Virus record (IMG/VR): IMGVR_UViG_3300048592_000967
Coordinates: 1,065 to 65,064 of that record
Source of the DNA: a virus
Taxonomy: Duplodnaviria; Caudoviricetes
Reading direction: 5' to 3' (one strand)
Length of the DNA stretch: 64,000 nucleotides
In this document: in pieces, positions 41,344 to 58,700 of the stretch
Layout: every line of letters starts with the position of its first letter
How positions within the stretch are numbered: the first letter of the stretch is position 1
Made by a program: the position numbers and the translations under genes
Notes under the pieces: model-generated
Database searches by the model: none
Seen by the model: the letters and a program-made list of their open reading frames with translations, nothing else
Told to the model about the DNA's origin: nothing

Positions 41344-41768
41344 ACAACAGCAACAGCAAAGGAGCAACCATGAACTCTGATGACCCATCGCGGATTCTGG
41401 ACGAATACTACCGGGGCGGCCTGCTGGCATCGCCACCTTCAGAGCGACTCCGTGAAGCCTGTCGACGCTACGTCAGCCGATATGAGCTTCACGAGGAACT
41501 TGCTGCTTCCACGGAGGCCTGCAAGGGCGAGGCATTGATAGAGATGAGGATGGAAGGCGTACTGGCGCTTTGCGCCGACACACCGCGGCTGCTGGGGGCT
41601 CATTCGACCTACATGGCTCTCCTGTGTCAGGCGTTTGCCGAAGGCGCCGTGGTCAATACGCTCCGGCGACTTGGGATGGAGGTCCCCCCGCTTGGCCCCT
41701 CTGACTTTCATACTTTTCAGGACTTTCTAGACGGTGTACAGGGGTCGCCGCCGCCAGGTCAGGACTGA
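41340..41768 (+). CDS. Hypothetical satellite protein
   Basis: ATGA overlap with TMP; repeated at 58262-58690. Confidence 0.65.
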   Translation: MNNSNSKGATMNSDDPSRILDEYYRGGLLASPPSERLREACRRYVSRYELHEELAASTEACKGEALIEMRMEGVLALCADTPRLLGAHSTYMALLCQAFAEGAVVNTLRRLGMEVPPLGPSDFHTFQDFLDGVQGSPPPGQD

Positions 41769-41778
41769 AAGGCTGTGC

Positions 41779-42006
41779 TCAGAATGGTCGCCCGCATTTT
41801 TCGCAAACACTTGAAGCACTGATAGGCGCAGGGCCAGTGAACAGGCCTTTCTTGATCAGTCGGGGATGCGGGCCGCAGTAGAAACCCTCCTGAAGGAGAA
41901 TGTTGTGGCCTGAATGGCCTTCGTAGAGGAAGTTAAGCACTTCTCGTTTCTCTTGGGACGAGAGGGTCTCGAACCAAACTGTGAGGTTCTTTACGGCAGT
42001 TGACAT
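41779..42006 (-). CDS. Small protein with C-terminal CxxCG
   Basis: AAGGAG RBS; GFYCGPHP/GLFTGPAP repeats, CEKCGRPF. Confidence 0.7.
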   Translation of the reverse strand: MSTAVKNLTVWFETLSSQEKREVLNFLYEGHSGHNILLQEGFYCGPHPRLIKKGLFTGPAPISASSVCEKCGRPF

Positions 42007-42019
42007 TCGGATTAGCTCC

Positions 42020-42619
42020 TTACTGGTCTGGGTCTTTTGGTGCGATAACTGCGGGACTACCACCGCAGAGTTGACAAGGTCCGGGTGTGAAACTCCAAGG
42101 GCTAGCGTTACATTTTGGGCAGACGGCTTCTTCGCCGGTCGGGGATTCTTTAGTAGCCTGTCTGTAGGCCTCTTGTCTAAGAGTTTCTTTGACTACCGAC
42201 AGCGCCGCGCGGTCGGCTTCTTGAAGGTCGGCAGCCCTGCGCATGAAAGCGTCAAACTCAGGGTCACTTATGTCGGAACGCCTCAACAAAGCCTGGATTT
42301 CTGTTGCCAACTGGACATTCTTGCCCATTCCCAGGCGGTGGGCTTCAGCTGACTCTTGCCATTTAGTGTAAAACTTGACGACGGTTAGGACCAATACAAG
42401 CGCTGCTATAACCTCCCAGATCTTGTCTGCTACTGGTCTCCAAGATTCCGGGAACAGCTCCCGCACGGGCAAGGATAAAACAGCCAGGAGAAGCGCCAGG
42501 AAATCGAAGATCGCCAACCATCTGCGACATTTTGCACCCAGCTTTTCGTGCAAATGGCGAGCGCTTATGGCGTTGGTATGCTCTTGTAGAAGCAGACTCT
42601 GTTGAGTTTCTGAAGGCAC
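42020..42619 (-). CDS. Mobilome CxxCx(11)CxxC, SLATT-like two-TM membrane protein
   Basis: Two TM helices, W.E.AE.H, C-terminal CPKC-x11-CQLC. Confidence 0.8.
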   Translation of the reverse strand: MPSETQQSLLLQEHTNAISARHLHEKLGAKCRRWLAIFDFLALLLAVLSLPVRELFPESWRPVADKIWEVIAALVLVLTVVKFYTKWQESAEAHRLGMGKNVQLATEIQALLRRSDISDPEFDAFMRRAADLQEADRAALSVVKETLRQEAYRQATKESPTGEEAVCPKCNASPWSFTPGPCQLCGGSPAVIAPKDPDQ

Positions 42620-42627
42620 GAGTTGAA

Positions 42628-42978
42628 CTACTCCATCCTGTCCGCAAGGGAAGCTTCTAGCAGCGCTGCAGCTTCTCGCAGTCTTTTGGCTACGTCCGCC
42701 GCCCGAGCCTCTGCCTCCGAATTGGGCCCCTGGCCTTTGCGCCAATCGGGCGCCGGGCGGGGGTCGTCAGTTTCGCCCATCAGGTAGGAAACCGAGGTCC
42801 TCAGCACGCGACAGACCAGGAGCAGTGTCTCATCCTCGGGCTTGTTCCGCCCACTCTCCCAGTTGTATACCGTCGTTCGAGCTTGCCCCAGTTGCCTTGC
42901 GAATTCGGCCTGGCTGAGACCTCTGAGCGTTCTGAGTTCGACCATCCGGCGGGCTATCGTTTCTCTGACGGGTGTCAC
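42628..42978 (-). CDS. Satellite XRE repressor
   Basis: LRTLRGLSQAEFARQLG..TVYNWESGRNKP..SVSYLMG; divergent from the cro-like gene. Confidence 0.88.
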   Translation of the reverse strand: MTPVRETIARRMVELRTLRGLSQAEFARQLGQARTTVYNWESGRNKPEDETLLLVCRVLRTSVSYLMGETDDPRPAPDWRKGQGPNSEAEARAADVAKRLREAAALLEASLADRME

Positions 42979-43001
42979 CCGGCCATCATACTTGTTCCCA
43001 A

Positions 43002-43042
43002 TCTGTTGACAACTGCCCCATAATGAGTAGAATGTCCACAGA
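43002..43042 (+). promoter_or_regulatory. Satellite switch promoter/operator
   Basis: TTGACA 43006-43011, TAGAAT 43028-43033; inverted repeat TCTGTTGACA / TGTCCACAGA ending just before ATG 43043. Confidence 0.7.
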
Positions 43043-43255
43043 ATGAGAACACTCGCCAAGCAACTATCAGACATCCGCACCGCCAAGGGCCTGTCCCAGG
43101 CCGCCCTGGCTCGCTTGCTCGGGGTAAGCCGTTCGGCCGTCCATAACTGGGAAGCTGGCCACCGGACACCAACGCTCGAGCAGACTTGCGCCCTGGCCAC
43201 GGCCTTGGAATGCACCGTCGACCAGCTGGTTCGACCGATCGGGGCCGTGTCTTGA
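43043..43255 (+). CDS. Satellite Cro-like HTH protein
   Basis: IRTAKGLSQAALARLLGVSRSAVHNWEAGHRTP. Confidence 0.9.
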   Translation: MRTLAKQLSDIRTAKGLSQAALARLLGVSRSAVHNWEAGHRTPTLEQTCALATALECTVDQLVRPIGAVS

Positions 43256-44074: not shown

Positions 44075-44707
44075 ATGATGAACGCACAGCCGAGGGTTTC
44101 GAGACAGCGGCCAAAGAACTCGATGGAACCTCGAGTGTCCATCACTACGCAGGACTATCCGGAAGACTGCAGCCGTCTGCTCACCGCAATGCAGAGGCTC
44201 CACCGGAGAGAGTATCGCTCGCCTCTCGAGGCCATCCCAGACTTGATCAGCTTCTTTGGGTTCCGCCTCGGGCGTCGTATGTTGCCGCCGCACCAGTGGG
44301 CACTGACGGACTTCGGGAAGAAGGAAGTGTGGCTCTGTAGCGAGCTGGCTGCAAAGCTTGAGATCCCGTCAGTAGCCAGAGAGGTTGAGGCGTTCTCGTT
44401 GGCTCACGAGCTGGCTCACGTGCGCCTTCACCAACACCTCGACGAATTCAACGACCTGCATGAGAAGGAGGCCGACGCTTATGCAGCTTGCTTTCTGATG
44501 CCTATCCGCCTTCTGCGCTTGGCGCCGGCGTTCAGCCGATTTCTGAGGGCTGAGACCCAAGGAGCAATGAGTCAGGAGGTCTCGGCGTTGGCTCAGCGGT
44601 TCGGGGTCAGCCGCTCCGCCATGACCTACCGTCTGTGTTCGCTCGGGGTGCTCCGCGTTGTTTCCGGTAGATGGGTGAAGGTGAGTTCCAAGGAGGTTAT
44701 GCAATGA
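44075..44707 (+). CDS. Satellite ImmA/IrrE-family metallopeptidase
   Basis: FSLAHELAH..EKEADAYA; collinear homologue of 4973-5563. Confidence 0.9.
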   Translation: MMNAQPRVSRQRPKNSMEPRVSITTQDYPEDCSRLLTAMQRLHRREYRSPLEAIPDLISFFGFRLGRRMLPPHQWALTDFGKKEVWLCSELAAKLEIPSVAREVEAFSLAHELAHVRLHQHLDEFNDLHEKEADAYAACFLMPIRLLRLAPAFSRFLRAETQGAMSQEVSALAQRFGVSRSAMTYRLCSLGVLRVVSGRWVKVSSKEVMQ

Positions 44708-44997
44708 AGAAGATTACAAAACCGAACGCACGGCGCGCAAAGGCCGCGGAAGAGTGGCAGTTTGAGGTCAAGCTCATTACCCCCACGCCCGAGAAGGAAA
44801 AGCAAATCATTCAGGCCCTGGTCAAGTTCATGGCCCCCGGCATCGCTGCCATCGCCAGAGAGCGGGGCCTGACCAATGCCCTTCCCCCCGAGGAGTTCGC
44901 TCGACGTCACAAGCTGATGGTCGACTACTACATGGCCAACCCACAGGCCACCTCCGTTCCTCCAGAGTTGCTGGCTGTTCCAGTCCAACCGGACTGA
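44704..44997 (+). CDS. Satellite copy of phage early gene 9885-10244
   Basis: 232-bp near-identical core. Confidence 0.8.
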   Translation: MKKITKPNARRAKAAEEWQFEVKLITPTPEKEKQIIQALVKFMAPGIAAIARERGLTNALPPEEFARRHKLMVDYYMANPQATSVPPELLAVPVQPD

Positions 44998-45028
44998 GTG
45001 TTCGCTCAGCCTCGACACTCCGTGAAGC

Positions 45029-45674: not shown

Positions 45675-45694
45675 AGCCCTGGCAGAACCGTAGG

Positions 45695-46909
45695 TCACAG
45701 ACCCGGGCTCTCTGCTCTCCGGCGGAGGGGAACCACCGTGCCCCGTTCGGCCGGCTCTGCACCCAGCGCAGGGGCCGCCTCGAGCATGTCCGCCAACTTG
45801 GCTGCAGCGCCGGCCTGCATGGTGGGCAGGACGTGGGAATAGGTGTCGAGGGTGATGCTGATGCTCGAATGACCGAGTCGCTCACTGACCACCTTGGGAT
45901 GTTCGCCCGCCAGGAGCAGCAGCGTTGCGCAGGTATGGCGCAGGTCATAAAGCCGGAAGCTGCTGGACAGGCCGGCTCGCTCAAGGGCAGGCTTGAAGGC
46001 CCTCTTGGTTAGATTGCCTTCAAACACGGGCCCGCCGCTCTCGTTCGCAAAAACGAAATCCCACTGGCTCTGCCACTTGTCGCCGGCAAAGAGCCGCTCC
46101 GGGACCTGCTGGACCCGGTGGGCCCTGAGTTCCTCCACGTCTCGAGCGTGGAGAGCCACGGTTCGCCTCGAGCCAGACGTCTTTGGTTCCTCAAACTTCC
46201 ACCCGCCGCCCTTCGGTCGAACCAGGACCTGAGTTACCCGGACGAGTCCGCGCTCAAGGTCCACTTCAGGCCACTGCAGCCCGAGGTATTCCTCGGGCCG
46301 CATACCGGTTCTCAGAGCAAAGCTGAGCAATGGACCCCAGCGCTGGCCCTCGACAGCCTTCAGAAACGCCTTGGCCTGCTCCAGGGTCATCGCCCGAAGG
46401 ACCTTCTTCCCTCGGTTGGCGGGCAGATTCACGTCGGCCGCGGGGTTGTGTCCCAGCATCCGCCACTTTACGCCCTGCTTCAGGGCCTGGTTCAGCACAG
46501 TGTGAAGCCGGCGGATAGTGAGCGGGGAGAGCCCCCGGTCGAGCATCCTGGAATAGAGGCCTTGGATGTGGATCACGTTCAACTTGTCGAGGGGGAGCCG
46601 CCCGATCTTGTCCTCCTTCACATAGCGTTCCCAGACCCCGGTATAGTCCTCGTGGGTCCGCCCCCGAATGCTACCCCTGGCCGAAGCCAGCCACTGTTCG
46701 AGCAGCTGGTTGACGGAGCCCGAGGAGCGAGCAACCAGCTGGCCGCGTTCGTAGGTGCCGACCAGGGCCCGGAGCCGCACTTCCGCCTCCTTCTTGGTGC
46801 CATGGACGGTCTCGGTATGGTAGAGGCGCTTCCCGGTCACCGCGTCCTTACCCAGGGATAAGCGGAGAAGGTAGGTCTTGTCGCCGCGCTTGATGATGGA
46901 GCCGGTCAT
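45695..46909 (-). CDS. int: Tyrosine integrase
   Basis: TGMRPEE, YDLRHT, RLGHS, TLDTYSH; N-terminal arm-binding domain. Confidence 0.96.
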   Translation of the reverse strand: MTGSIIKRGDKTYLLRLSLGKDAVTGKRLYHTETVHGTKKEAEVRLRALVGTYERGQLVARSSGSVNQLLEQWLASARGSIRGRTHEDYTGVWERYVKEDKIGRLPLDKLNVIHIQGLYSRMLDRGLSPLTIRRLHTVLNQALKQGVKWRMLGHNPAADVNLPANRGKKVLRAMTLEQAKAFLKAVEGQRWGPLLSFALRTGMRPEEYLGLQWPEVDLERGLVRVTQVLVRPKGGGWKFEEPKTSGSRRTVALHARDVEELRAHRVQQVPERLFAGDKWQSQWDFVFANESGGPVFEGNLTKRAFKPALERAGLSSSFRLYDLRHTCATLLLLAGEHPKVVSERLGHSSISITLDTYSHVLPTMQAGAAAKLADMLEAAPALGAEPAERGTVVPLRRRAESPGL

Positions 46910-48138
46910 TCTTGCGCCGCTTTGCGAGCTGGTTGCTGCTGTCTGACACCAGTCAGAGAAACGATAGCCCGCCGGATGGTCGAACTCAGAACGCTCAGAG
47001 GTCTCAGCCAGGCCGAATTCGCAAGGCAACTGGGGCAAGCTCGAACGACGGTATACAACTGGGAGAGTGGGCGGAACAAGCCCGAGGATGAGACACTGCT
47101 CCTGGTCTGTCGCGTGCTGGGAACCAGGGCCAGGCCGCCATCAATAAAGTCCATGAGCACCTCGGAAGATTGCTCAGGTGTCGATGCTGGGGGGATCAGG
47201 AATTGCTCCGGAGAGAGTCGTTCGTACGGAGGGAAGTTCTCAGGATGAAGCTTTCGATCGAGTCTGAATTCCGCAAACTCTGCCTTGCCCATCAAAACGA
47301 ACCGGCCTGACCCTCCGATACGAAGCAAGTGGAGTTCTCCCGATTTGAGCGCCGCCTGTTCTTCTGGCGACAAACCTGCGAAGTAGGTGCGCCAATCCTT
47401 GCGCTGTTCCCAGAGCAAAGTGAAGATGTCCTTCCGCCTCAGTTCCCTGACCATTTGCGCGCGCCGGTCTCGCTCTTGCTCGTCTGGTTTCATTCGGGTG
47501 CGCCGAGCCATCCGCATCAGCGGTGAACTTTCATTGCACCCGCGTGTCCTGAGTAGGTCCACAGGATCTAGAGCGGGCAATTGGGATTCCCAGTCCTCCT
47601 CCCAGTCGTCGAGTTCGTCCTCATGGTCTCCAGGAACGTCCTTGGCGTCGTTCTCGCGGGCAATGGGCGGTTCCGACTCTCCGGGCGGATTGTCCGACTG
47701 CAGGCTCTCGGTTGCTACTATGGAAACTTTGCTTGCTACGGCTTCGACGTTTTCCTGGATGTGACCAGGGGCGGCTGGGGCTTTTTTCTTGGCCTCCGCC
47801 CCACTCGTCTTCCCATCGGGTGGTAAGCCCCGAGCAAGCCAGGTCCCAACGCTCATTGCGAGATTTTCCGGGCACCCGTGCGCTATAAGCACCTTCTTGG
47901 CCGCCCTGAATAGGTTGTCGAGCTTGGTAGGCTTAACTGCCCCCTTTTCCCAGTTCAGCAAAGTGTCTCGAGACGGTCCGCCGTTGGACTCTATGGCTGA
48001 CTTTGATGCCGAAAAAGTTTCGTAGAAAATCGGCAGTCTTTTGCCCAGAAGTGGTTCATCAGGAAGCCCGTCACATAGGGCTTTCCAGTCTTTTCGTTCG
48101 GCAGTGAATTCGGCATTTTCTGGGGTGCCGATCGGCAT
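46906..48138 (-). CDS. Putative regulator with N-terminal HTH-like segment, coupled to int
   Basis: PSRDTLLNWEKGAVKP; GGAGG RBS; divergent from xis; stop overlaps the int ATG. Confidence 0.6.
   Translation of the reverse strand: MPIGTPENAEFTAERKDWKALCDGLPDEPLLGKRLPIFYETFSASKSAIESNGGPSRDTLLNWEKGAVKPTKLDNLFRAAKKVLIAHGCPENLAMSVGTWLARGLPPDGKTSGAEAKKKAPAAPGHIQENVEAVASKVSIVATESLQSDNPPGESEPPIARENDAKDVPGDHEDELDDWEEDWESQLPALDPVDLLRTRGCNESSPLMRMARRTRMKPDEQERDRRAQMVRELRRKDIFTLLWEQRKDWRTYFAGLSPEEQAALKSGELHLLRIGGSGRFVLMGKAEFAEFRLDRKLHPENFPPYERLSPEQFLIPPASTPEQSSEVLMDFIDGGLALVPSTRQTRSSVSSSGLFRPLSQLYTVVRACPSCLANSAWLRPLSVLSSTIRRAIVSLTGVRQQQPARKAAQE
46944..47119 (+). repeat. 176-bp inverted copy of the satellite repressor HTH-coding region (42802-42977)
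   Basis: Reverse-complement match with one mismatch seen. Confidence 0.93.
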
Positions 48139-48213: not shown

Positions 48214-48453
48214 TTGAACAACTCAGGACTGCTCAATGGCCTACCTCGCCTGATCAAGCCTTGGCCCGACTGGGGGCAAGCGAATGGTCTATCTCGTGGC
48301 GCAACCTACGCGGCAGTCGATCGGATGCCGCCCGGCGTCCGGATCAAGATCGGCGGTCGCCTCCGCCTGAACGCAGACAAGCTACGAGAGTATCTTGAAG
48401 CGGGCGGAGACCTGGCCCGTCAATGTTCGGACGGACCCGGTGACTCCCGCTGA
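48214..48453 (+). CDS. Excisionase/AlpA-like DNA-binding protein
   Basis: GLSRGATYAAV..IKIGGRLRL..LREYL; AGGAG RBS. Confidence 0.75.
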   Translation: MNNSGLLNGLPRLIKPWPDWGQANGLSRGATYAAVDRMPPGVRIKIGGRLRLNADKLREYLEAGGDLARQCSDGPGDSR

Positions 48454-48967: not shown

Positions 48968-49335
48968 TGCAGCGCCCCGCCTCCGAACCAGGTGGCGGGG
49001 CCGGTCGGGCCCCCAAGCCCCCGGCACCGCCCTTTGAACTGCTCGAACTGAATCCCATCGGCAAGGGGAGTCTTCTCGGCCGGGTGCGGCTCAAGATGCC
49101 CTCGGGACTCATCATCGCCTGCAACGTGCTGCGTTCCAAACAAGACGGCCAGGCCGTATTCGTTTTGCCAGTCGGGGAGCGCCGGCACGACGGTGGATTC
49201 GCTCCTATCGTCGACTTTGCGACTCCAGAACTCCGGGAAGCCTGGCAAGACTCGGCACTGGCGGCCGTTCGCCCGAGGCTCCATGAACTTCTCGACCCCA
49301 CCCCCAAGGAGCGTTCCCAATATGCAGACTTCTAG
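48967..49335 (+). CDS. Small beta-rich putative nucleic-acid-binding protein
   Basis: AGGAGG RBS; upstream of the primase; FVLP..PIVDF. Confidence 0.6.
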   Translation: MQRPASEPGGGAGRAPKPPAPPFELLELNPIGKGSLLGRVRLKMPSGLIIACNVLRSKQDGQAVFVLPVGERRHDGGFAPIVDFATPELREAWQDSALAAVRPRLHELLDPTPKERSQYADF

Positions 49336-52300
49336 CCGCCGAGGGTCGACAGTAACCCAAAAGAACCCCTGTCCGATTTGTGGCAAACCGGACTGGTGCC
49401 TCCGTTTTCAGGACGGCGGCGTGAATTGCTATCGGGTGCCTTCGCTGCGGGAGAAGACCGACCATGAAGGCACCCTGTACTGGGTTCATCAGACGGAAGC
49501 CGGTGAGCAGGGCCCGGCCCTGGAACCGCTCCCTACGCAACAGCACAGCAGGGCCTCGGCCGACAAGGTGGACCGAGTCTACCGGGAGTTGCAGCAGCAA
49601 CTGACTCTGAACCAGGAGCACCAGGCCCAGCTGGTCGACCGGGGTCTGCCCGAGGTGGCCATCCGAGAGCACGGCTTCAGGTCGATGCACAGCCCGGCAG
49701 TTCGGGCGACCATCGCCAGGAGCATCGCTGACCGCTTCTCCGACTGGCAAGGTGTCCCGGGCTTCTACTGCGACCCCAAAACAGGGAAGGCCCGGCTGGC
49801 TGGTTCCGAGGGTCTGCTCATCTTCGGTAAGGACTTGGCCGGTAACGTGGCCTCGGTAAAGATTCGTCGAGATACGATAAAGGCAGGACAGGACCGGTAC
49901 TATTGGCTGAGCAGCACCAAGCACGGCGGCCCGTCTTCGGGTTCCTCGCCCACCTGGTGGGAACCGGTATCCAGGTCCCGGCTTAATGGGGTGGTTCGCA
50001 TCACTGAAGGCGCGTTCAAGTCCGTGGTCAGCGCTGAGTTGACCGGGGTTCCTGGTATCGCCGCAGGGTCCGGGGTGGGCTCCATGGCCAGCCCCCAGGT
50101 GCTCGACTTCCTGGCCGAACTGAATCCAGAGAAGGTTCTCGTCTCCAGCGACGCTGACTGGTTCTACAAAGCTGAGGTAGTTGTGAAGGCGAGAGCCTGC
50201 CTGGCTCGTCTGGCTGATGTTGCCGAGCGCTCCGGTCTTGAAGTCCTGGTGGAAGTCTGGCAGAGGGACCTCCCCGCCAAGGAGCGCTTCAAAGGCATCG
50301 ATGACGCCTTAACCGGTGGCCAGTCTATCGAAACCCTGGATCTTGATCGCTTTTTGAAATTGCTGCCCCCAGAAGATAGGGGTAAAAAAGTGTCACAGCT
50401 GTCACACGGTCAAGGAATGGCTTCAAATAAGGTTTCAGAGGGTGACGGCCTTTTGTCACAGGCTGTCACGGGGGGCCATGGCTCTTTGTGCGAAAGCCTG
50501 ATTTTAAGCCATTCTGAGGGTGACAACCCTGTGACAACCCAGGCGGCCGAGCTGTCACCGGCTGCCTCCTCACACCTTCCGCAGACCCTCGAAGGGGCTC
50601 TTCTGGCCGCCGACCGGTTTAGAGAGCAGATGAAGCCCAAGGACCTCCAAGGCCTGGCTTCTTCGATTTCGGCTGCTACTCGAGGGGTGGCCGTTGCGCC
50701 GAAGTTCCGCCGGCGGGTCCTGAACGTGCTCCAGCGATACGAGGCGCTACTGGGTGGCCATGGTGTGAACATTCACGATGTGACGGCGAGTGAACAGGCG
50801 CTTCGCGATTCCGAGGAGAGCGACACCGACAAGAAGGACCCGAACCACCAGGCAGACGTTCTCTTGGAAATGGCGTCCGCCGCCCAACTCATCAAGCACG
50901 GGAACCACCACTACATGAGCATGCTTCGCACCAACCCGGACGGGAGTTTCGGCCGCGAGACGGTTCGCTTTGGCGATCGGGGCAACGGCGCCGCCGCCTG
51001 GCTGAACTATGGCTACTACAAGGCCAAGGGTCGCGCCCCCAGTTCGGAAGCCATCAAGGCCGCCATGGCGACCCTGGAAGCCCGGTGTGAGTTCGAGGGC
51101 CTACAAGAGCGAGTCTGGCTTCGTGTGGCAGAGTCGGCCGATGGTGGAGACGGCAGCGATCGACGCCTCTACCACGACCTGGGGGACGAGCACCGGCGAA
51201 TCGTCGTCATCAGTCCCCAGGGTTGGCAGGTGGCTCAGGATGTCCCGGTCTACTTCTGGCGACCCAAGAGCCTCCAGGCCCTACCCGAACCGGTAAGGGG
51301 TGGTTCGCTGCTGGAACTGCGGGAGTTCCTGAACCTCCCCGACGAGAGCAGCTGGATTCTGGCAATTGCCTTCCTGATTTACAGCTTCGTGCCGACCTGC
51401 CCCCATCCGCTGCTCATCCTTGAGGGCGAGGAAGGATCCTGCAAGACTTGGGCCAGCCGCATTCTCCGTTCCCTGGTCGACCCAAACGGCGCCCTGACCC
51501 GGCGCCCACCGCGCAACGAGGAAGACCTCAGCCTCTATGCCCTGAACTCTCATCTGCCTTGCATCGACAATGTTGGCCAGATCGAGGACTGGCTGTCTGA
51601 CGGCCTGTGCGCTATCACCACCGGCAACGGGTGGGGCCGGCGGGCCAAGTTCACCGATGAGGCCGAATCGGTCGTGAACGTGGTGAGGCCCGTCATGATG
51701 ACCGGGCTGAGTGGTCTGAACGGCAAGTCCGATCTGATGGACCGAACGATCAAGCTGGTTCTGCAGCGCGTCCCTCCCAGCAAGCGACAGGCAGAGTCCG
51801 ACCTTCAGAAGGCCTTCGAAGAGGCCCGCCCCCGTATTCTCGGGGCCATTTACGATGTTCTCGCCAAGGGCCTGGCCAACCGCGGACAGGTCCCCCTACC
51901 AGCGCTCCCCCGCATGGCCGACTTCGCGCGGTTCATTGTCGAGGCTGAGGAGGCGCTACCTTGGAAGCCCGGTCAGTTCATGGAGGCCTTCCGCGAACAT
52001 CGAATAGACCAGGTCCTGGGGGTGCTCGAGTCAGACGGCCTGGCATCCGCCGTGCGGGAGCTCATGCGCCAGACCACCCGCTGGGAAGGCTCGGTCAGTC
52101 AACTCCACGTTCGCCTCTCAGAGTTCCGGGAGTTCAAGAGCAAGTTGCCAGGGCCCATGAGCCTGAAGGCCGCGATCCTAAAACTCAGGCCCAGTCTGCG
52201 GCATCTTGGAGTCGAAGTTTCTGACCTGCGCACCCGCAACGCCCGCTTGATCGTCTTGGAGAAAATGAGCGAGCGGCCCTCTGGGCTGCCTCAGAGCGAA

Positions 52301-52360
52301 GCGAAGCCGAGCCAAGAAACTCTCGCTGCCGAAGTTGCGGCCGTCGGAGAGCTGTTTTGA
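49322..52360 (+). CDS. Primase-helicase (Zn finger + Toprim + P-loop ATPase)
   Basis: CPICGKPDWC, ITEGAFK, SDAD, KGIDD, GEEGSCKT, IDNV, DLMDR, RMADF. Confidence 0.9.
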   Translation: MQTSSRRGSTVTQKNPCPICGKPDWCLRFQDGGVNCYRVPSLREKTDHEGTLYWVHQTEAGEQGPALEPLPTQQHSRASADKVDRVYRELQQQLTLNQEHQAQLVDRGLPEVAIREHGFRSMHSPAVRATIARSIADRFSDWQGVPGFYCDPKTGKARLAGSEGLLIFGKDLAGNVASVKIRRDTIKAGQDRYYWLSSTKHGGPSSGSSPTWWEPVSRSRLNGVVRITEGAFKSVVSAELTGVPGIAAGSGVGSMASPQVLDFLAELNPEKVLVSSDADWFYKAEVVVKARACLARLADVAERSGLEVLVEVWQRDLPAKERFKGIDDALTGGQSIETLDLDRFLKLLPPEDRGKKVSQLSHGQGMASNKVSEGDGLLSQAVTGGHGSLCESLILSHSEGDNPVTTQAAELSPAASSHLPQTLEGALLAADRFREQMKPKDLQGLASSISAATRGVAVAPKFRRRVLNVLQRYEALLGGHGVNIHDVTASEQALRDSEESDTDKKDPNHQADVLLEMASAAQLIKHGNHHYMSMLRTNPDGSFGRETVRFGDRGNGAAAWLNYGYYKAKGRAPSSEAIKAAMATLEARCEFEGLQERVWLRVAESADGGDGSDRRLYHDLGDEHRRIVVISPQGWQVAQDVPVYFWRPKSLQALPEPVRGGSLLELREFLNLPDESSWILAIAFLIYSFVPTCPHPLLILEGEEGSCKTWASRILRSLVDPNGALTRRPPRNEEDLSLYALNSHLPCIDNVGQIEDWLSDGLCAITTGNGWGRRAKFTDEAESVVNVVRPVMMTGLSGLNGKSDLMDRTIKLVLQRVPPSKRQAESDLQKAFEEARPRILGAIYDVLAKGLANRGQVPLPALPRMADFARFIVEAEEALPWKPGQFMEAFREHRIDQVLGVLESDGLASAVRELMRQTTRWEGSVSQLHVRLSEFREFKSKLPGPMSLKAAILKLRPSLRHLGVEVSDLRTRNARLIVLEKMSERPSGLPQSEAKPSQETLAAEVAAVGELF
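50391..50558. repeat. Second TGTCAC/GTGACA iteron array inside the primase-helicase linker
   Basis: 7 perfect hexamers; GTGACAACCCTGTGACA shared with 45029-45045. Confidence 0.75.
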
Positions 52361-53207: not shown

Positions 53208-53717
53208 TTGAAAAAGCCAACTTCTTACGTCGAGTGCTGCCGAGAACTGGAGTCTTCGGGAGTAGACTCCGACACCGCCTGCCGTGCCTGCGAAATCGCT
53301 TTCTGGCAGACCCACGGCATGCTTATCGAGACCGCAGAGCGAAACGGTGCTGACCCCGCCGGCAGCCTTATCGACTCGGCCAGGGCGTCGACGATCGAAC
53401 TCTCAAGGCAGGACGATGGGGGCAAGAACCGCCAAATCGGTCAGGCAGGCTTGAGCAGGAACCTGACCAGAGGGGCCTCTCTGGCATCACCGCCGGATGA
53501 AGATCCTGACGACATGGTGAAACTGGCCCGAAGAATGGGCCTGCCTGTCCGCCCAGAGTCGAAGGTCGACCCCAACGACCTGGTCAGCGTCGCCAGAAAT
53601 CTGGGGCTTCCAGTTCGTCCCGAGCGCCCCGCCTGTGCCATCGAAGAAAGCGACCCCGATCACATGGTCAAGCTGGCCAAAGGGTTGGGGCTACCTGTCG
53701 GACCGGTAACCAGTTGA
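53208..53717 (+). CDS. Mini-scaffold: phage scaffold N-domain + 3x C-terminal motif, no protease domain
   Basis: GAGGT RBS before TTG 53208; KKPTSYVECCRELES matches 31558; MVKLARRMGLPV-type motif x3. Confidence 0.85.
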   Translation: MKKPTSYVECCRELESSGVDSDTACRACEIAFWQTHGMLIETAERNGADPAGSLIDSARASTIELSRQDDGGKNRQIGQAGLSRNLTRGASLASPPDEDPDDMVKLARRMGLPVRPESKVDPNDLVSVARNLGLPVRPERPACAIEESDPDHMVKLAKGLGLPVGPVTS

Positions 53718-53778
53718 ACTCGACTTGAATTCATCGACACGACAACGGGGAGTTTGTCATAGCGAAGGAGACATAACC

Positions 53779-54351
53779 ATGTTCGGATTCTTGAAACGAA
53801 ACAGGAAACCGCTACCCGCCCGGCCGGTCGAGGAAATCGACGCAGAGCTTGGCCCATTGGTCGAGGCGCAGCAAATTGAAGCGGCACGTCGACAGAAGAT
53901 CGACCAGCTCCAGGAAGAACGCAGTCGGGCTGTACTGTTGGCAGAAGAGGAGCAGCGCGCGAAGCAGGCCGCTGACCTGCAGCCTGAATACGAGAGACAC
54001 GCCTCCGCCTGGCGAGAGAAGGTCGCCGCTATTGAGGACGCGCTTCAGGGGCTGATGCACGATTTCAAAGAGGCCGCCGACCATGGGTGGAAAGCCAGCA
54101 GGGTGCAGCTTCGGATCGAGCGTCTTGGCCACCGGGTGAGCAACCCGCTTCGGGGCTATCAAGCCTCCTTTCTGGGCTACTTCACTTACGAGCGCTTTCT
54201 CAAGTTGTGGAAGGAGGCCGAGCGGCCCGGGGCGCTGGCGCCGCATCAGGCAGCAGCTGTCACCCGTGGTGAGCAACGCAGTCTGCCCGCTCAGCGAACT
54301 CTGCCACCTGTCCCCGTGAAGCCCTCCGCCAAGGGTAAGCTCAAGGGATAG
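53779..54351 (+). CDS. 190-aa coiled-coil protein
   Basis: AAGGAG RBS, preceded by a CGGGGAG-loop hairpin at 53741-53758. Confidence 0.75.
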   Translation: MFGFLKRNRKPLPARPVEEIDAELGPLVEAQQIEAARRQKIDQLQEERSRAVLLAEEEQRAKQAADLQPEYERHASAWREKVAAIEDALQGLMHDFKEAADHGWKASRVQLRIERLGHRVSNPLRGYQASFLGYFTYERFLKLWKEAERPGALAPHQAAAVTRGEQRSLPAQRTLPPVPVKPSAKGKLKG

Positions 54352-54357
54352 CGACCT

Positions 54358-54388: not shown

Positions 54389-54393
54389 CTTGG

Positions 54394-54520
54394 AACTTAG
54401 GAAATCCTGACGGGGCGTTTTCGTGCGAGGATGCACCCTCGTTTTATTTTGCCGGGGGAGACATCGCGAGGGGAGACATCCCAGGCAGTGTCACGAGTCG
54501 GCAGGTTCTCGTGGGGAGAC
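54394..54520 (+). promoter_or_regulatory. Satellite copy of the putative packaging site plus GGGGAGAC repeats
   Basis: 54394-54462 is the reverse complement of 29496-29564; three GGGGAGAC motifs. Confidence 0.7.
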
Positions 54521-54584
54521 ATACCTGCCCGCTATGGTCCAGCTCTGTAACGGGGAGTTTGCGGAATTGGAACGGTAACAACCC

Positions 54585-57500
54585 ATGGCTGTTGTGCCAG
54601 TAATTTTGAAACTGCTCGCCCAGAAGGCGCCGGGACTAACCTCGGCGCTCTCTGAGGTGCGCAAGGATTTCGGGGACCTCGCCTCCCTGGTCGACACCGT
54701 CAAACTCAAGGCCGCGGGATTCACCCTGGCCACCACGGTGGGCATCGCCTCACTGGGTGGCCAGGTCGTGAAGCAGGCCGGCGAATTCGAGCAACTTCAG
54801 GCGCGAATGCTCTCGGTGGCCAAAACCGCCGAGGGCGCCTCAGCAGCTTTCCAAAACGCGCTGGAACTGGCATCAAACAGCCCGTTCGACGTAAAGGGCG
54901 TGGTTGCAGCTACCGTCCAACTCGAGGCATTCGGCCAGCGCTCCAAAGAGTTGCTGCCCTTGGTGGGCAACCTGGCCGCTGCGTTCGGAAAGCCGATCGA
55001 GGAGGGCGCTCAGGTCCTCGGCAAGGCATTCAGCGGCAGCCTCGAGGGCTTCGAGTCGCTACGGAACACCTACGGTATCTCTACGGCCCTGCTGGTGCGC
55101 TACGGTGCCACGATGGCCAAAACAGGGGGCATTGCCGTCTCGACGGCGACGGACCTCCAGAAGGCCCGACAAGCGCTTACCCAGATCATCCAGACCCGCT
55201 ACGGCGACGCCATGGAGCGACAGAGCCGGACTCTATTCGGGGCGTTTTCCAACTTGGAGGACGCCGTCTCGCGTTTCGCAGCAGCGTTCGGGACCGCGTT
55301 GATCCCGCTCGCGACGACCATCACCAGGGCTCTGACCGCGGTCGTTGAGAGTTTCGAGCAAATCCCGGCACCGTTCCGAACGCTGATTGCACTCGGTGGA
55401 GTCGCCACGGTGACGATCGGCGCTCTGGCTACGGCAGTGCTCGGTGTCGTCGGCCTGGTCGGAAACGCAATTCCCCCGCTCGTGTCCATGGGCAGGGCGA
55501 TGGGCATCCTGGGGGGCACCTCCGCGGCTACAGCTGGAGAGGTCACGGTGACAGTCCTTGCAACCGAGCGCATGGGCGTGGCTAACGCGGCGGCCTCCGA
55601 GACGGTGGTGAACTTGGCTCGAGTCGTCACCGGGGCCGGGATTGTCCAGCAGGCTTTCAATGCCGAGCTAACCTACACGTCGCGCGCCCTGACCGGCCTT
55701 ACCGGACAACTGCCGGCTCTGACCGCCGAGGTCGCACTCTACCGGCAGGTGACCTCCGGGGCCTCCATCGGCACGGCTCAACTGGCCCTGGGGGCGGGCA
55801 AGGCCGGCCCTCAGTTGGCACTGGCTACGGCCGGCGTCCAAAACCTGGCGGTGGCCACCCCGCAGGCCTCGACCGGCCTGGCCAACCTGGCCGCGAGAAC
55901 CGATGCTGCTACACGAGCGGGCGGCGTGTTTGCTGGCCTGGGTCTGGGCCCAGTCTTGCTGGGGATCGGCGCCGTCGCCGGCGGAGCCACGTTGGCGCTG
56001 GCCAACATGCACAACCAGAACGAGCGACTTAACCAGTCCGTGGAGCAGTCAGCACGAATCTTCCAGGATGCGGTTCGGGGTTTGCGACAGATGCAGAGTT
56101 TCATCGAACAGCTCACCGGTAAGCAGGCCGGTTACGTTCGAGGCAATACGACTGCTGCAGAGGCCGTGGCGGCGTTTAAGGAGCAACTCAACGAGATCAG
56201 TCCAGCTGAGCTGCTGGATAGGCTCGAGAAGGCCGGGAAGTCAATCCAAGACTTGCGGGACGAACTCAAGCTTGGAACTGAGGTGGCCAATAAGCAGGCC
56301 GCTGAGATTGCGAGAATCGAAGAGGAACAATCGCGACTCAACAAGACGATTGAGCTTTACAAGGCGCTGATGAAGTCGGGATTCAGCGACCAGGTCAACA
56401 CTCAGGAACTGGATGAAGCGGGCTCGCAGCTCGAGATAAACCAGGAGCGGCTTGATACCCTCAGGAGCAGCTTTCAAAGAACCAGCAAGGAGAACTCCTT
56501 GAAGGAAGAGCTGATCCCTCGTCTTGAGGCGACCTCGAAGGCCTTTGAAGCGGCAAGCGAGCATACCCAGCAGTTCAGCGCATACCTCAGTAGTGTCGGA
56601 CGGACCGACTCAATCCCCCAGGTGAACCGAGCAATCGAGCTGACGAACCAAAGGCTGCAGCAAGTCCGAAAGGACCTCGAGGGCCAGGGCTTACCCTTGA
56701 ACAACTTGGTGGCCCTCAGGGAACGTCTGCTCAACGCAAACCCGAAGGAGCAGCAGGCGATCAACGACCTACTGAAACTCGAAGATGCCCGGGTTGACTT
56801 GGTCAAAAAGCGGGAAGACCTGGAGCAGGCCGGCGTTCGTGAGAAAATCCGACAGGCCGACCTGGCCATCGAGCGCGAGAACGTCCGCCTGGGCGAGAGC
56901 CTGACGCGCGAGCGGGAGCGAGTCGCAGCCCAACTGAACCTCGTCCGGAGCGGCAGCGAGGAAGAGCTCAGCATTCGCAAACGTCTGGCCAGCCTCGATG
57001 ATCGCATTCGCACTGACAAAGTCACGAAAGCTCGAGACGCCTTTGAGACCGAGCAGGGCGCCTTGCGCGATGGGCTCGACGCTTTGCGGGGCTCGGGTGA
57101 GGCCAGCGCTGAGGAGATTGCCGGGGCCATCGAGCAGATCATCCTCAAAACGGAGGCTTGGCAGGCGGCTAACAAGGGCATCCTTGCTCAGTCGCCAGAC
57201 CTGACCCAAAGCGTCTCAGGGGCCCTGCGAGGGCTGCGCAGGGACCTGGATTCAGCTACCCGGGCCATTCCGAAGGAAAGAGTCGATGAAGCGCTGGCGG
57301 CGGCCAAAGAACTCGGAACCGAGGCCATCAACGCCGAGCAGAAGCTGGCGGCGGCCACGAAGGGTATCGAGCAACTACGGGCCCTCCAGGCATCGGGAGA
57401 GATTACCACTACCCGAGAGCGAGCAAGGCTGCAGTCTGAAATCAACAAGCTGACCAACGAGGAGCTCAAGTTGCGGACCGAAGTCGCTAAAGAGGAGCGG

Positions 57501-58265
57501 GCTCAGGCGAGGGAAACGGACGCGCTTCGCCGCGGTGGGCTCGAGACCGAGCTGGAGCTGCTCAAGGTCCGCCAGGAGCAATCAGGGCAGGACCTGAGTT
57601 CCCAGATCCGCGACAAAGAGCAGCAGATCCTGGCTGAGAAGCTGCAGGCCATCCGGGAGCAAGAGCAAGCCGAGATCGACTCCGGCGTGAACGCTACTCG
57701 GGCCCGAGAACGGGCGGAGATCCGCATCACCCAACTGAAAAACGAAGAGACTCTGAAGCGCATGCAGGCAGAGTCCGACCTCACCGGCGCCGTCGAATCC
57801 GAAGCCAAAAAGCAAGAGGACATCCGTAAGCGCTATCAAGACCAGCGCCTGGGTGGGCCGAACTCTCCTCTCAAGTCCCTCGCCGAGGTGAGCGAGGAGC
57901 TTCAGATGCTGGGGGCTTTCGATCTGGGCTCCGGCTTTGGGCGCTCTCGCAGCAACGCGAGGCAGTCTCCACCCTCAGGACTGTTCGAAGTCCAGAGGCA
58001 GATCGAGTCTGACATCACCTCCGGGGACCGAGTGGCTGGCCGTGGCCAGCGCGGTCGGTATACCGATGCGATCAACGCAGCCGAAAGGACCCCCACTTTC
58101 GTGGCCCCGGACGGCCCGGGAACGCCGGCCGCCGGCACAGTGAACAACTACTACGTGAGCTTGCAAAACCGAGCCCTTGACGTCAACGACCCCGCCAGCC
58201 AGCAAGCGGTTAAGCAACTGGTTGGGCAGTTCATCACCGAAGCTCAGCATCGGGGTGTGGCATGA
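54585..58265 (+). CDS. Tape measure protein (satellite context)
   Basis: 1226 aa, 3 aa differences from 37663-41343; different upstream leader. Confidence 0.92.
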   Translation: MAVVPVILKLLAQKAPGLTSALSEVRKDFGDLASLVDTVKLKAAGFTLATTVGIASLGGQVVKQAGEFEQLQARMLSVAKTAEGASAAFQNALELASNSPFDVKGVVAATVQLEAFGQRSKELLPLVGNLAAAFGKPIEEGAQVLGKAFSGSLEGFESLRNTYGISTALLVRYGATMAKTGGIAVSTATDLQKARQALTQIIQTRYGDAMERQSRTLFGAFSNLEDAVSRFAAAFGTALIPLATTITRALTAVVESFEQIPAPFRTLIALGGVATVTIGALATAVLGVVGLVGNAIPPLVSMGRAMGILGGTSAATAGEVTVTVLATERMGVANAAASETVVNLARVVTGAGIVQQAFNAELTYTSRALTGLTGQLPALTAEVALYRQVTSGASIGTAQLALGAGKAGPQLALATAGVQNLAVATPQASTGLANLAARTDAATRAGGVFAGLGLGPVLLGIGAVAGGATLALANMHNQNERLNQSVEQSARIFQDAVRGLRQMQSFIEQLTGKQAGYVRGNTTAAEAVAAFKEQLNEISPAELLDRLEKAGKSIQDLRDELKLGTEVANKQAAEIARIEEEQSRLNKTIELYKALMKSGFSDQVNTQELDEAGSQLEINQERLDTLRSSFQRTSKENSLKEELIPRLEATSKAFEAASEHTQQFSAYLSSVGRTDSIPQVNRAIELTNQRLQQVRKDLEGQGLPLNNLVALRERLLNANPKEQQAINDLLKLEDARVDLVKKREDLEQAGVREKIRQADLAIERENVRLGESLTRERERVAAQLNLVRSGSEEELSIRKRLASLDDRIRTDKVTKARDAFETEQGALRDGLDALRGSGEASAEEIAGAIEQIILKTEAWQAANKGILAQSPDLTQSVSGALRGLRRDLDSATRAIPKERVDEALAAAKELGTEAINAEQKLAAATKGIEQLRALQASGEITTTRERARLQSEINKLTNEELKLRTEVAKEERAQARETDALRRGGLETELELLKVRQEQSGQDLSSQIRDKEQQILAEKLQAIREQEQAEIDSGVNATRARERAEIRITQLKNEETLKRMQAESDLTGAVESEAKKQEDIRKRYQDQRLGGPNSPLKSLAEVSEELQMLGAFDLGSGFGRSRSNARQSPPSGLFEVQRQIESDITSGDRVAGRGQRGRYTDAINAAERTPTFVAPDGPGTPAAGTVNNYYVSLQNRALDVNDPASQQAVKQLVGQFITEAQHRGVA

Positions 58266-58690: not shown

Positions 58691-58700
58691 AAGGCTGTGC

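What the first reader, a model, noticed from the sequence alone, without database searches (positions are those of the whole stretch)
41344..58265. 16.9-kb phage satellite that encodes its own tape measure protein, found together with its probable helper
Seen: a 16,922-bp unit with integrase, attP, Xis, primase-helicase and iterons but no capsid, portal, terminase, tube or lysis genes. It shares six separate pieces with the adjacent phage: TMP, a 69-bp terS-upstream site, scaffold ends, ImmA/IrrE, an early gene and leader hairpins. Established: P4 and PICIs have this int/regulator/primase core and hijack helper heads. Inference: this is a satellite specialised on this siphophage that manipulates induction, head assembly, packaging and tail assembly. 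A full TMP as the only tail gene, plus a helper-derived mini-scaffold, does not fit the P4, SaPI/PICI or cf-PICI layouts I know.
Basis: partly seen in the sequence, partly recalled or inferred. Interest (0 to 1): 0.93.

Follow-up and report, generated by a model that had tools for sequence, protein, structure and literature searches.

The report
Phage satellite carrying helper's tape measure
A 16.9-kb mobile element that looks like a parasite of the neighbouring phage carries its own copy of that phage's tail-length ruler gene; satellites of this kind were first described in 2025-2026, so this is a new variant rather than a new kind.

Summary
The window is nearly all of one 65,064-bp virus contig. 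The "16,922-bp unit" is the period of a 9,416-bp direct repeat (37663-47078 = 54585-64000) that runs to the contig end. Its last 8,493 bp are identical.

The left part is an incomplete temperate siphophage with no tail-tip genes after its TMP. The repeated part is a separate element. It has a tyrosine integrase, an attP made of a tRNA-Trp-like 3' half, a primase-helicase, a repressor/ImmA module and a full TMP. HMM scans found no capsid, portal, terminase, tube or lysis genes.

Independent support:
- A 15.4-kb contig from another metagenome has the same order.
- Variants about 98% identical lie on contigs up to 229 kb.
- A distant relative is an 18.2-kb island integrated at tRNA-Met.

All six pieces shared with the phage are real.

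Best reading: a phage satellite, assembled as a lasso or co-integrate with its helper.

Satellite-encoded TMPs are already published (PLEs, EPIPs). This scan also noted them on other DNA. I rate it a new variant, interest about 0.55.

The parts
27399..29527 (-). Helper phage terL (27399-28928) and putative terS (28928-29527)
   Evidence: terL matches phrog_38 at 1e-74. terS has no family hit and is named from its position only. Its true start may be a GTG further downstream (my reading).
29480..29564 (-). Helper site at the terS 5' end or upstream, copied in the element. It holds two GGGGAGACA repeats.
   Evidence: Self-BLAST gives 85 bp at 96.5% to 54394-54478, inverted.
30035..37662 (+). Helper head and tail genes: portal, protease-scaffold, decoration protein, major capsid protein, adaptors, major tail protein, tail chaperone
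   Evidence: PHROG hits. The chaperone 36820-37662 has no hit and is named from its position.
37663..41343 (+). TMP copy 1, in helper context (follows the chaperone). Its 5' 920 nt differ from copy 2 at 43 positions.
   Evidence: Pfam TMP_3 scores 1e-5, below the cutoff. PHROG TMP families score 2e-7.
41344..58265 (+).
41340..41768 (+). 142-aa ORF overlapping the TMP stop codon. Function unknown; it may not be a gene.
   Evidence: No family hit. Atlas and AlphaFold models have pLDDT 41-42.
42020..42745 (-). Cargo gene: mobilome CxxCx(11)CxxC / SLATT-like protein
   Evidence: TIGR04402 at 1.8e-22, 80.5 bits against a cutoff of 70. phrog_24948. In run X4, 41755-42724 is replaced by 1,275 other letters.
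42628..43215 (-). XRE-type repressor (HTH at residues 88-145 of the ORF)
   Evidence: Pfam HTH_3 at 3e-13; phrog_8 at 2e-19
43043..43255 (+). Divergent Cro-like HTH protein, 70 aa
   Evidence: Pfam HTH_3 at 2e-14
44075..44707 (+). ImmA/IrrE-type metalloprotease, 51% identical to the helper's (4973-5563, minus strand)
   Evidence: Pfam Peptidase_M78 at 3e-12. BLASTP 7e-58.
44671..44997 (+). Small early gene shared with the helper (9855-10241)
   Evidence: 267 nt at 94.8%; 88% aa identity
45491..45537 (-). attP core: 3' half of a tRNA-Trp-like gene
   Evidence: Sequence. One copy per unit. Loose ends of metagenome contigs cluster at 45492/45504 and 45537 and continue with tRNA-like sequence.
45695..47038 (-). 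Tyrosine integrase
46906..48138 (-). 410-aa ORF of unknown function upstream of int. It contains an inverted copy (46944-47122) of the repressor HTH region.
   Evidence: No family hit. The inverted repeat is 180 bp at 98.9%. 46925-47133 is absent from X2 and X4, which have 35 nt there instead.
48214..48453 (+). Not supported by profile searches.
   Evidence: No Pfam or NCBIfam hit
49322..52360 (+). Primase-helicase: a zinc finger, a Toprim-like part and a P-loop NTPase part
   Evidence: Domains of homologues. Atlas score 0.98 to Toprim / Zn-ribbon primase clusters. The motifs were read by eye.
53208..53717 (+). Mini-scaffold: the N-terminus of the helper protease-scaffold plus its C-terminal motif in three copies. 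The protease part is missing.
   Evidence: BLASTP 4e-34 with 60% identity over 87 aa. The C-terminal motif matches at 2e-5 and 0.005.
53725..54351 (+). 208-aa ORF of unknown function (my reading: helix-rich, charged). The helper-type leader motif (53744-53756) lies at the 5' end of the listed ORF, so the real start is probably the downstream ATG.
   Evidence: No Pfam or NCBIfam hit. Motif. The downstream ATG is visible.
54394..54525 (+). Copy of the helper terS-upstream site, with three GGGGAGACA repeats. Candidate packaging site or late-control site.
54549..54561 (+). Helper-type leader motif AACGGGGAGTTTG, 24 nt before the TMP start codon
54585..58265 (+). TMP copy 2, in element context, 1226 aa
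   Evidence: The contig in X4 runs from 53441 through this gene into 41344 and onward.
58266..64000 (+). Second pass through 41344-47078, identical, cut off by the contig end

Best explanation
The 16.9-kb unit is a temperate phage satellite.

What the sequence shows:
- It integrates through a tyrosine integrase whose attP is the 3' half of a tRNA-Trp-like gene.
- It has a repressor / Cro-like / ImmA switch.
- It has its own primase-helicase.
- It has no head, packaging-enzyme, tail-tube or lysis genes.
- It carries pieces copied from one siphophage:
  - a full TMP with an almost identical protein;
  - a protease-less mini-scaffold with the helper's N-terminus and three copies of its C-terminal motif;
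  - an 85-bp copy of the site at the helper's terS start, with GGGGAGACA repeats;
  - the helper's leader motif in front of its two late genes.

What I infer:
- After helper induction or infection the element is derepressed, excises and replicates.
- Its late genes are switched on together with the helper's structural genes.
- The mini-scaffold competes for the helper capsid protein, as SaPI CpmB does. This may give small heads that fit 16.9 kb, which is about a third or less of the helper genome.
- The helper terminase packages the element from the copied site.
- The element's TMP goes into tails otherwise built from helper parts, as shown for PLEs.

The contig is not a single natural genome. 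The assembler, or a homologous co-integrate, passed from the helper into the element inside the shared TMP and then went round the element about 1.5 times.
For: Separate element:
- The phage part has its own serine integrase, ImmA, repressor, lysis genes and the end of a tail-fibre gene at the contig start.
- The phage part lacks any Dit, Tal or hub gene after its TMP.
- The contig is 65,064 bp and ends inside the repeat.

Independent occurrence:
- 20 of 22 listed runs, from 8 studies, hold part of 47079-54584.
- Of the 4 runs laid, X4 has a 15,424-bp contig (depth 13.9). It runs about 46865 -> 47134 -> 54584 -> TMP -> 41344 -> 45312.
- None of the 4 runs covers 36500-37163.
- A TMP variant (1225 aa, 98.7% identical) and a primase-helicase variant (98.2%) are each on record with a longest contig of 229,356 bp.
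- The helper MCP cluster has a longest contig of 65,064 bp, and its next relative is 55% identical.

Family:
- L047 has an integrase, a primase-helicase (Zn_ribbon_DnaG, 28.2 bits) and a TMP (36% identity at the N-terminus).
- These lie between a 55-bp perfect direct repeat made by the 3' half of tRNA-Met, 18.2 kb apart.
- Of its 10 other ORFs scanned, none had a capsid or terminase hit.

Selection on the TMP:
- 43 nt differences give only 3 aa differences.
- 17 of the 28 listed differences in 40049-41305 fall on codon position 3. This is my own arithmetic, which displayed 40 rows of 589.
- The indel at 41200-41203 nets 3 nt, so the frame is kept.

Helper mimicry.

Precedent:
- PLE TMPs are incorporated into PLE virions (PMC12987554, passages).
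- CpmB copies the helper scaffold C-terminus (PMC5644958, passages).
Against: - No experiment and no raw reads were available. Every run laid was Logan contigs, so relative coverage and circle-closing reads could not be seen.
- Only 1.16 kb of helper DNA was on the laid stretch. Its lack of cover is weak evidence.
Integration at tRNA-Trp and co-location of the TMP and the primase on that one contig are therefore inferred from equal contig lengths.
- Only 1 of 121 loci fetched through primase-helicase homology has a related TMP. The family is thin.
- The element's TMP protein is almost the same as the helper's. The PLE rationale, a divergent TMP that escapes a satellite-made inhibitor, does not apply, and the benefit of the gene is unexplained.
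- The TMP 3' identity may be an assembly collapse.
- Xis is not supported, and the role of the 85-bp site (packaging or late promoter) is undecided.
Confidence: 0.7

Rival explanations
1. The contig is a true molecule. The satellite, as a concatemer, has recombined into the helper genome through the shared TMP. This gives a co-integrate that is replicated or packaged as part of the phage. The unit is still a satellite, but one physically embedded in its helper.
For: - TMP copy 1 has the helper-type 5' end and copy 2 has the element-type 5' end. They are identical after 38585, as expected after a crossover.
- attP is intact in both passes, so the joint was not made by the integrase.
- Earlier AI notes of this scan describe helper-embedded satellites elsewhere. 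I did not check them.
Against: - A co-integrate should end with TMP followed by tail-tip genes. Instead the contig ends inside the second pass of the element.
- An 8.5-kb exact repeat that runs to a contig end is what a walk round a cycle in an assembly graph gives.
- In X4 the element is contiguous across the TMP without helper DNA.
Confidence: 0.15
2. The unit is an integrative element, or a decayed prophage remnant, that picked up phage fragments by recombination. It is not mobilised by the phage, and the TMP and other pieces are passengers.
For: - No mobilisation data exist.
- The primase-helicase family is widespread in islands without any TMP: 120 of 121 loci.
- The function of a TMP identical to the helper's is unclear.
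Against: - The TMP is intact and under purifying selection in two copies and in divergent variants.
- A deep relative keeps a TMP in the same position.
- The copied pieces are exactly those a satellite needs: a scaffold-binding motif in three copies, the terS-site copy, and the late leader motif before two genes.
- The size is about a third or less of the helper's.
Confidence: 0.1
3. This is a pure assembly artefact or a fixed segment of the phage genome, and no independent 16.9-kb entity exists.
For: The repeat reaches the contig end, and its last 8,493 bp are identical.
Against: - The junction from 54584 into TMP copy 2 is unique sequence.
- The same order is found in a 15.4-kb contig of another study.
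- The element is present in runs from 8 studies.
- Near-identical TMP and primase variants lie on contigs up to 229 kb.
Confidence: 0.05

Closest known systems
PLEs of Vibrio cholerae (PLE11, PLE1, PLE4), satellites of phage ICP1 (PMC12987554)
   Same: A capsid-less integrative satellite that encodes its own full TMP. The published model is chimeric tails built from the satellite TMP plus helper tail parts.
   Different: - PLE TMPs are about 20% identical to ICP1's and come with a satellite chaperone and, in some PLEs, a baseplate hub. Here the TMP protein is 99.8% identical to the helper's and no chaperone or hub was found.
- The PLE helper is a lytic myophage. Here the helper is a temperate siphophage.
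- The integrase, replication module and host lineage differ.
- I did not test sequence homology to PLE genes.
Satellite P4 and P4-like elements
   Same: A tyrosine integrase at a tRNA gene, a large primase-helicase, a copy of the helper's packaging region, and a size of about a third of the helper. The P4 facts are recalled, not taken from a call.
   Different: - No Psu, Sid, Delta or Epsilon family was found in any ORF scanned.
- The primase-helicase has no direct Pfam hit.
- P4 has no TMP and no scaffold mimic.
SaPI1 and other PICIs (CpmB capsid-size redirection; PMC5644958)
   Same: A small satellite protein carries the helper scaffold's C-terminal capsid-binding motif. The int / repressor / primase core is also shared.
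   Different: - Here the mimic also keeps the helper's N-terminal 87 aa and has the motif three times.
- There is no terS, ppi or cpmA.
- A TMP is present.
EPIP satellites of Mycolicibacterium aichiense (PMC12822802, preprint)
   Same: A small satellite with a TMP. The authors propose tail hijacking.
   Different: - EPIPs are 11 kb, with a serine integrase, terS, adaptor and stopper proteins, a scaffold and a capsid gene. They show little homology to their helper.
- This element has none of those head genes, and its TMP is nearly identical to the helper's.

Membership tests
Phage satellite (general) | Lacks the genes for an autonomous virion (capsid, portal, terminase, tail tube, lysis) | tested here: met
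   No such family was found in any element ORF scanned against Pfam, PHROGs or NCBIfam, apart from the TMP. The unassigned coding space is too small for a head module.
Phage satellite (general) | Own integration and replication functions, and existence independent of the helper genome | tested here: met
   Integrase and attP. Primase-helicase. Independent contig in X4. Variants on contigs up to 229 kb.
Phage satellite (general) | Packaged and transferred by a helper phage | not testable with these tools
   Only mimicry is seen: the 85-bp copy of the terS site, the scaffold motif and the leader motif.
P4-like satellites | Psu, Sid, Delta and Epsilon capsid and helper-control genes | tested here: not met
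   No Pfam hit to such families in any ORF scanned. The list of P4 marker genes is recalled, not taken from a call.
P4-like satellites | Alpha-type primase-helicase plus integrase | tested here: inconclusive
   The function class is supported through homologues (DUF3854, D5_N and VirE in relatives). I made no direct comparison with P4 alpha.
cf-PICI (capsid-forming PICIs) | Own capsid, portal, protease, terS and head-tail connector genes | tested here: not met
   None found.
PLE | Homology to V. cholerae PLE genes and dependence on ICP1 | not tested
   No PLE sequence was fetched. The host and helper type differ. The likeness is only functional (a TMP-encoding satellite).
EPIP | An 11-kb genome with serine integrase, terS, adaptor, stopper, scaffold, MCP and TMP | tested here: not met
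   The integrase is a tyrosine recombinase, and no terS, adaptor or MCP was found. The EPIP gene list comes from the text of PMC12822802.
Tape measure protein | Long helical protein encoded after the tail chaperone, with TMP family similarity | tested here: met
   PHROG TMP families at 2e-7 to 4e-4. Pfam TMP_3 at 25.6 bits, below the cutoff of 41. Copy 1 directly follows the major tail protein and chaperone genes.

The most novel reading that the evidence does not exclude
This is a deep-branching family of tRNA-integrating satellites with an integrase and a primase-helicase, living in uncultured bacteria. The nearest named relative of the primase is from a Vulcanimicrobiota MAG at 59% identity. 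The family keeps a tape measure gene that is repeatedly homogenised with the current helper's gene. The TMP would then serve as a long homology arm that lets the satellite form co-integrates with the helper genome, of which this contig would be one, as well as a structural part. That would be a route of satellite-helper coupling unlike the divergent-TMP strategy of PLEs.
Probability: 0.15. Interest if true: 0.75.

Novelty: new variant of a known kind. Interest (0 to 1): 0.55.

Why it matters
Satellite-encoded tape measures were shown experimentally only in cholera-phage PLEs (2025-2026) and proposed for EPIPs and some cf-PICIs.

This element shows the trait in a different satellite architecture: a tyrosine integrase at a tRNA gene plus a primase-helicase, with no head genes. 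It lives in environmental, uncultured hosts.

The satellite and its probable helper lie side by side, so each pirated piece can be read directly against its source: the TMP, the scaffold ends, the terS-site copy and the late leader motif.

The near-identity of the two TMP proteins, kept by purifying selection, does not fit the published reason for a satellite TMP, which is escape from a satellite-made inhibitor of the helper TMP. It points to another benefit: supply, timing, or recombination with the helper. That benefit is testable.

Tried and rejected
Searches that gave nothing useful:
- Megablast of 41344-54584 and of 28000-41343 against 50,697 phage records found no match.
- The primase-helicase profile against PDB sequences gave nothing below E = 0.27.
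- The 142-aa ORF after the TMP had no family hit. Atlas scores were at most 0.82 and the AlphaFold2 model had pLDDT 42, so I ran no fold search on it.
- The search for more int-primase-TMP elements:
  - 65 GTDB loci, 6 IMG/VR loci and 50 JGI metagenome loci were fetched by primase-helicase homology.
  - tblastn and phmmer with the TMP found only L047 among these 121 loci. L077 also matched, but it was fetched with the TMP itself and is an ordinary phage.
  - Of 10 long ORFs I picked downstream of primases, 9 were scanned. None was a TMP.
- The genome G001 has no second copy of L047's TMP, so it shows no resident helper.

Readings that I did not use as evidence:
- No run covered 36500-37163 of the helper. 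This is only 1.16 kb, the runs are contigs and a filter leaves some records out. I count it as weak.
- The loose ends at 45492/45504 and 45537 with tRNA-like continuations may be attL/attR junctions of integrated copies. They may equally be plain tRNA-Trp genes of other bacteria that share the 34-nt core. I could not tell which.

Readings considered and dropped:
- A defective mini-genome of the same phage. The integrase type, the repressor and the replication genes all differ from the phage's.
- A tailocin-like remnant. The TMP is the only tail gene.

Papers:
- I saw PMC12822802 as part 1 of 2 of the full text. That part covers the abstract and main text.
- I saw PMC12987554, PMC11364771 and PMC5644958 as passages only.
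- Supplements are closed. Extended Data Fig. 10 of PMC12987554 and the EPIP supplement may list elements like this one, and I saw only the legend.
- Full-text searches for other reports found no description of a satellite with a tyrosine integrase, a primase-helicase and a TMP.

Full report
WHAT THE DNA IS

The window is bases 1065-65064 of a single 65,064-bp virus record. A self-comparison shows that 37663-47078 recurs at 54585-64000. The match is 9,416 bp at 99.54% with no gaps, and it runs to the very end of the contig. All 43 differences lie in 37668-38585, the first 920 nt of the tape measure (TMP) gene. From 38586 onward the two copies are identical for 8,493 bp. The contig has the shape: linear part, then loop, then half a loop again.

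THE LEFT PART IS AN INCOMPLETE TEMPERATE SIPHOPHAGE

- The contig starts inside a tail-fibre gene (L001 2-1177, PHROG tail-fibre families).
- Next come a holin and an endolysin, a serine integrase (3072-4691, minus strand), ImmA and an XRE repressor.
- Then early genes: an exonuclease, two DNA methyltransferases, a DHH phosphoesterase and a glycosyltransferase.
- terL and a putative terS lie on the minus strand.
- Then portal, protease-scaffold, decoration protein, lambda-E-type capsid protein, adaptors, major tail protein, chaperone and the TMP.
- No distal-tail, hub or tip gene follows the TMP.
- The phage is therefore cut between the TMP and the tail fibre. What follows the TMP in the contig belongs to something else.

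THE REPEATED PART IS A DIFFERENT ELEMENT

- It has a tyrosine integrase (45695-47038, minus strand).
- About 160 bp downstream of int lies the 3' half of a tRNA with a Trp-type anticodon loop through the CCA end (45491-45537, minus strand, my reading).
- This half-tRNA occurs once per period. There is no whole tRNA in the window.
- attP is therefore intact. In this contig the element is in its excised, circular or tandem form.
- It also has an XRE repressor, a divergent Cro-like HTH gene and an ImmA/IrrE protease.
- It has a 1,012-aa primase-helicase. That protein has no direct family hit. Its homologues carry DUF3854, DUF3987, DUF927, VirE and D5_N. The nearest Atlas clusters are Toprim / zinc-ribbon primases at 0.98.
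- It carries a cargo gene of the 'mobilome CxxCx11CxxC' / SLATT-like type.
- No capsid, portal, terminase, tube or lysis family appeared in any ORF scanned.
- 'Xis' got no profile support.
- Repeat families exist around the att core and inside the primase gene. Whether they are iterons or integrase arm sites is open.

THE SIX SHARED PIECES ARE REAL

1. TMP: 1223 of 1226 residues are identical. 43 nucleotide changes give 3 amino-acid changes.
2. An 85-bp match (96.5%, with a 69-bp exact run) joins 54394-54478 to the helper's terS start region. It has GGGGAGACA repeats, three in the element and two in the phage.
3. The 169-aa mini-scaffold (53208-53717) matches the first 84 residues of the helper protease-scaffold at 60% identity. 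It repeats the helper's C-terminal motif and lacks the protease part.
4. The ImmA proteins are 51% identical.
5. An early gene is 88% identical in protein.
6. The motif AACGGGGARTTTR occurs four times, all on the plus strand, where 0.00 are expected by chance. The sites lie just upstream of the helper capsid and tail-tube genes, at the 5' end of the element's 208-aa ORF, and 24 nt before the element's TMP.

IS THE UNIT AN INDEPENDENT ENTITY?

- The unique part 47079-54584 is held, in part, by 20 of 22 listed runs from 8 studies. These are bioreactor, sludge and aquatic metagenomes, and 6 runs hold at least half of the sampled words.
- I laid 4 runs from 4 studies on 36500-56400. All were Logan contigs, so depth and circle-closing reads are not available.
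- In X4 one 15,424-bp contig (depth 13.9) runs from the 5' part of int (about 46865) through 47134-54584, straight into the TMP, on through 41344, and ends at 45312.
- That is the order C region, TMP, B region in another study, with no helper DNA.
- The TMP stays in frame in X4: a net 3-nt deletion at 41200-41203.
- By my arithmetic, 17 of the 28 listed differences in 40049-41305 fall on third codon positions. Only 40 of 589 rows were displayed.
- Contig ends and loose ends pile up at the borders of the att core (45492/45504 and 45537) and continue with tRNA-like sequence. This fits integrated copies, but it could also be unrelated tRNA-Trp genes.
- The cluster look-up shows a 1225-aa TMP variant (98.7% identical) and a primase-helicase variant (98.2%). 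Each is recorded on contigs up to 229,356 bp.
- The helper capsid cluster goes no further than this 65-kb contig, and its next relative is 55% identical.
That both genes lie on it together is therefore inferred from the equal lengths.

A DISTANT RELATIVE HAS THE SAME DESIGN

- Among 65 GTDB loci with a related helicase, one, L047, also has an integrase and a TMP homologue (36% identity over 250 aa).
- I rebuilt its 44.6-kb contig. It shows a tRNA-Met and a perfect 55-bp copy of that tRNA's 3' half 18.2 kb away, beyond the integrase.
- Between the two repeats lie int, a primase-helicase with a DnaG-type zinc finger, and a 1,170-aa TMP.
- The 10 other ORFs scanned there have no capsid or terminase hit.
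- That genome has no second copy of this TMP.
- No further case was found in the 6 IMG/VR and 50 JGI loci.

HOW IT MOST LIKELY WORKS

Shown:
- the gene content;
- an intact attP;
- purifying selection on the TMP;
- helper-type signals before the late genes;
- the copied terS site;
- the scaffold mimic.

Inferred:
- The element lies integrated at tRNA-Trp and is held silent by its repressor.
- When the helper is induced or infects, the element is derepressed. Its ImmA homologue may act across the two repressors.
- It excises and replicates with its own primase-helicase.
- Its late genes are read together with the helper's structural genes through the shared leader motif.
- The mini-scaffold binds helper capsid protein through the triplicated C-terminal motif. 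This is the principle shown for SaPI1 CpmB, whose C-terminal helix-and-hook copies that of the 80-alpha scaffold (PMC5644958, passages).
- This may redirect assembly to small heads. 16.9 kb is at most 40% of the helper, which is more than 42.4 kb before its missing tail-tip genes are counted.
- The helper terminase starts packaging at the copied site.
- The element's TMP is built into tails made of helper tube, chaperone and tip proteins, as demonstrated for PLE TMPs (PMC12987554, passages).

Why a satellite keeps a TMP whose protein is the same as the helper's is not explained by the PLE model. Supply, timing, or use as a recombination arm are open options.

THE CONTIG ITSELF

- An 8.5-kb exact repeat that ends at the contig end is what a walk round a cycle in an assembly graph gives.
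- The contig end also lies inside a 180-bp inverted repeat (46944-47122 against 42798-42977).
- A real co-integrate formed by crossover in the TMP cannot be excluded. I give it about 0.15.
- In either case the helper's true TMP 3' part and tail-tip genes are not in the record.

COMPARISON AND NOVELTY

- PLEs encode TMPs, a chaperone and sometimes a hub, and they build chimeric tails. The same paper's Extended Data Fig. 10 legend reports putative tmp genes in PLE-like elements and cf-PICIs.
- EPIP satellites of Mycolicibacterium carry a TMP and have longer tails (PMC12822802).
- Earlier AI notes of this scan also report several TMP-bearing satellites on other DNA. I did not check them.
- What is different here:
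  - the core (tyrosine integrase at a tRNA, plus a primase-helicase, with no head genes);
  - the TMP as the only recognised tail gene;
  - its near-identity to the helper's TMP;
  - the scaffold mimic that keeps both ends of the helper protein;
  - the environmental host lineage. The best named relative of the primase is from a Vulcanimicrobiota MAG at 59% identity.
- It fails the marker tests for P4-like elements, cf-PICIs and EPIPs. It was not tested against PLE sequences.
- My full-text searches found no report of this layout. Supplements were closed.

VERDICT

It is a real satellite-like element with its own tape measure, recurrent in nature, and assembled together with a fragment of its probable helper. 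I rate it a new variant of a known kind, with interest 0.55.

Noticed in passing
window 46925-47133: The 180-bp inverted copy of the repressor HTH region lies inside the ORF upstream of int. It is specific to this variant. In runs X2 and X4 these 209 bp are replaced by the same 35 nt. It therefore looks like a recent inverted duplication or insertion, not a conserved feature.
   Followed up: partly
window 41755-42724 and 42020-42745(-): This is a variable cargo slot. The window has a 'mobilome CxxCx(11)CxxC' / SLATT-like gene here (TIGR04402, 80.5 bits). The X4 variant has 1,275 unrelated letters in its place. It may be defence cargo.
   Followed up: no
window 33332-33344, 35999-36011, 53744-53756, 54549-54561: The motif AACGGGGARTTTR sits inside a short hairpin in front of the capsid, tail-tube and element TMP genes, and at the 5' end of the element's 208-aa ORF. 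There are 4 hits where 0 are expected. It is a candidate late-gene control element shared by helper and satellite.
   Followed up: partly
window 28928-29527(-): The putative terS has no family hit in PHROGs or Pfam. Its listed start lies inside the 85-bp shared site. A GTG with a GGAGGG ribosome-binding site about 110 nt downstream may be the real start. terS and terL are transcribed away from the portal gene, which is an unusual arrangement.
   Followed up: no
G001 contig C10 in L047 orientation, 3188-3448: Besides the 55-bp att repeat there are further partial copies of the tRNA-Met 3' half: 26 bp at 3261-3286, and 15 bp at 3188-3202 and at 3324-3338. These suggest remnants of earlier integrations at the same site.
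   Followed up: no
L069 18673-19626(-): The L047-type element carries a NYN-domain (RNase-like) protein next to the tRNA-Met end (Pfam NYN, 1.8e-17). It may be cargo.
   Followed up: no
window 45040-45130 and 50368-50566: GTGACAGCTGTCAC-like palindromes and a 27-nt repeat family occur beside attP and again inside the primase-helicase gene, including a 46-bp inverted match at 87%. This may be a two-part origin, or integrase arm sites.
   Followed up: partly
window 15276-16865, 22176-23864, 25895-26866: The helper carries two DNA methyltransferases and a glycosyltransferase. Its decoration protein has a C-terminal stretch that hits tail-fibre (collagen-like) PHROGs.
   Followed up: no
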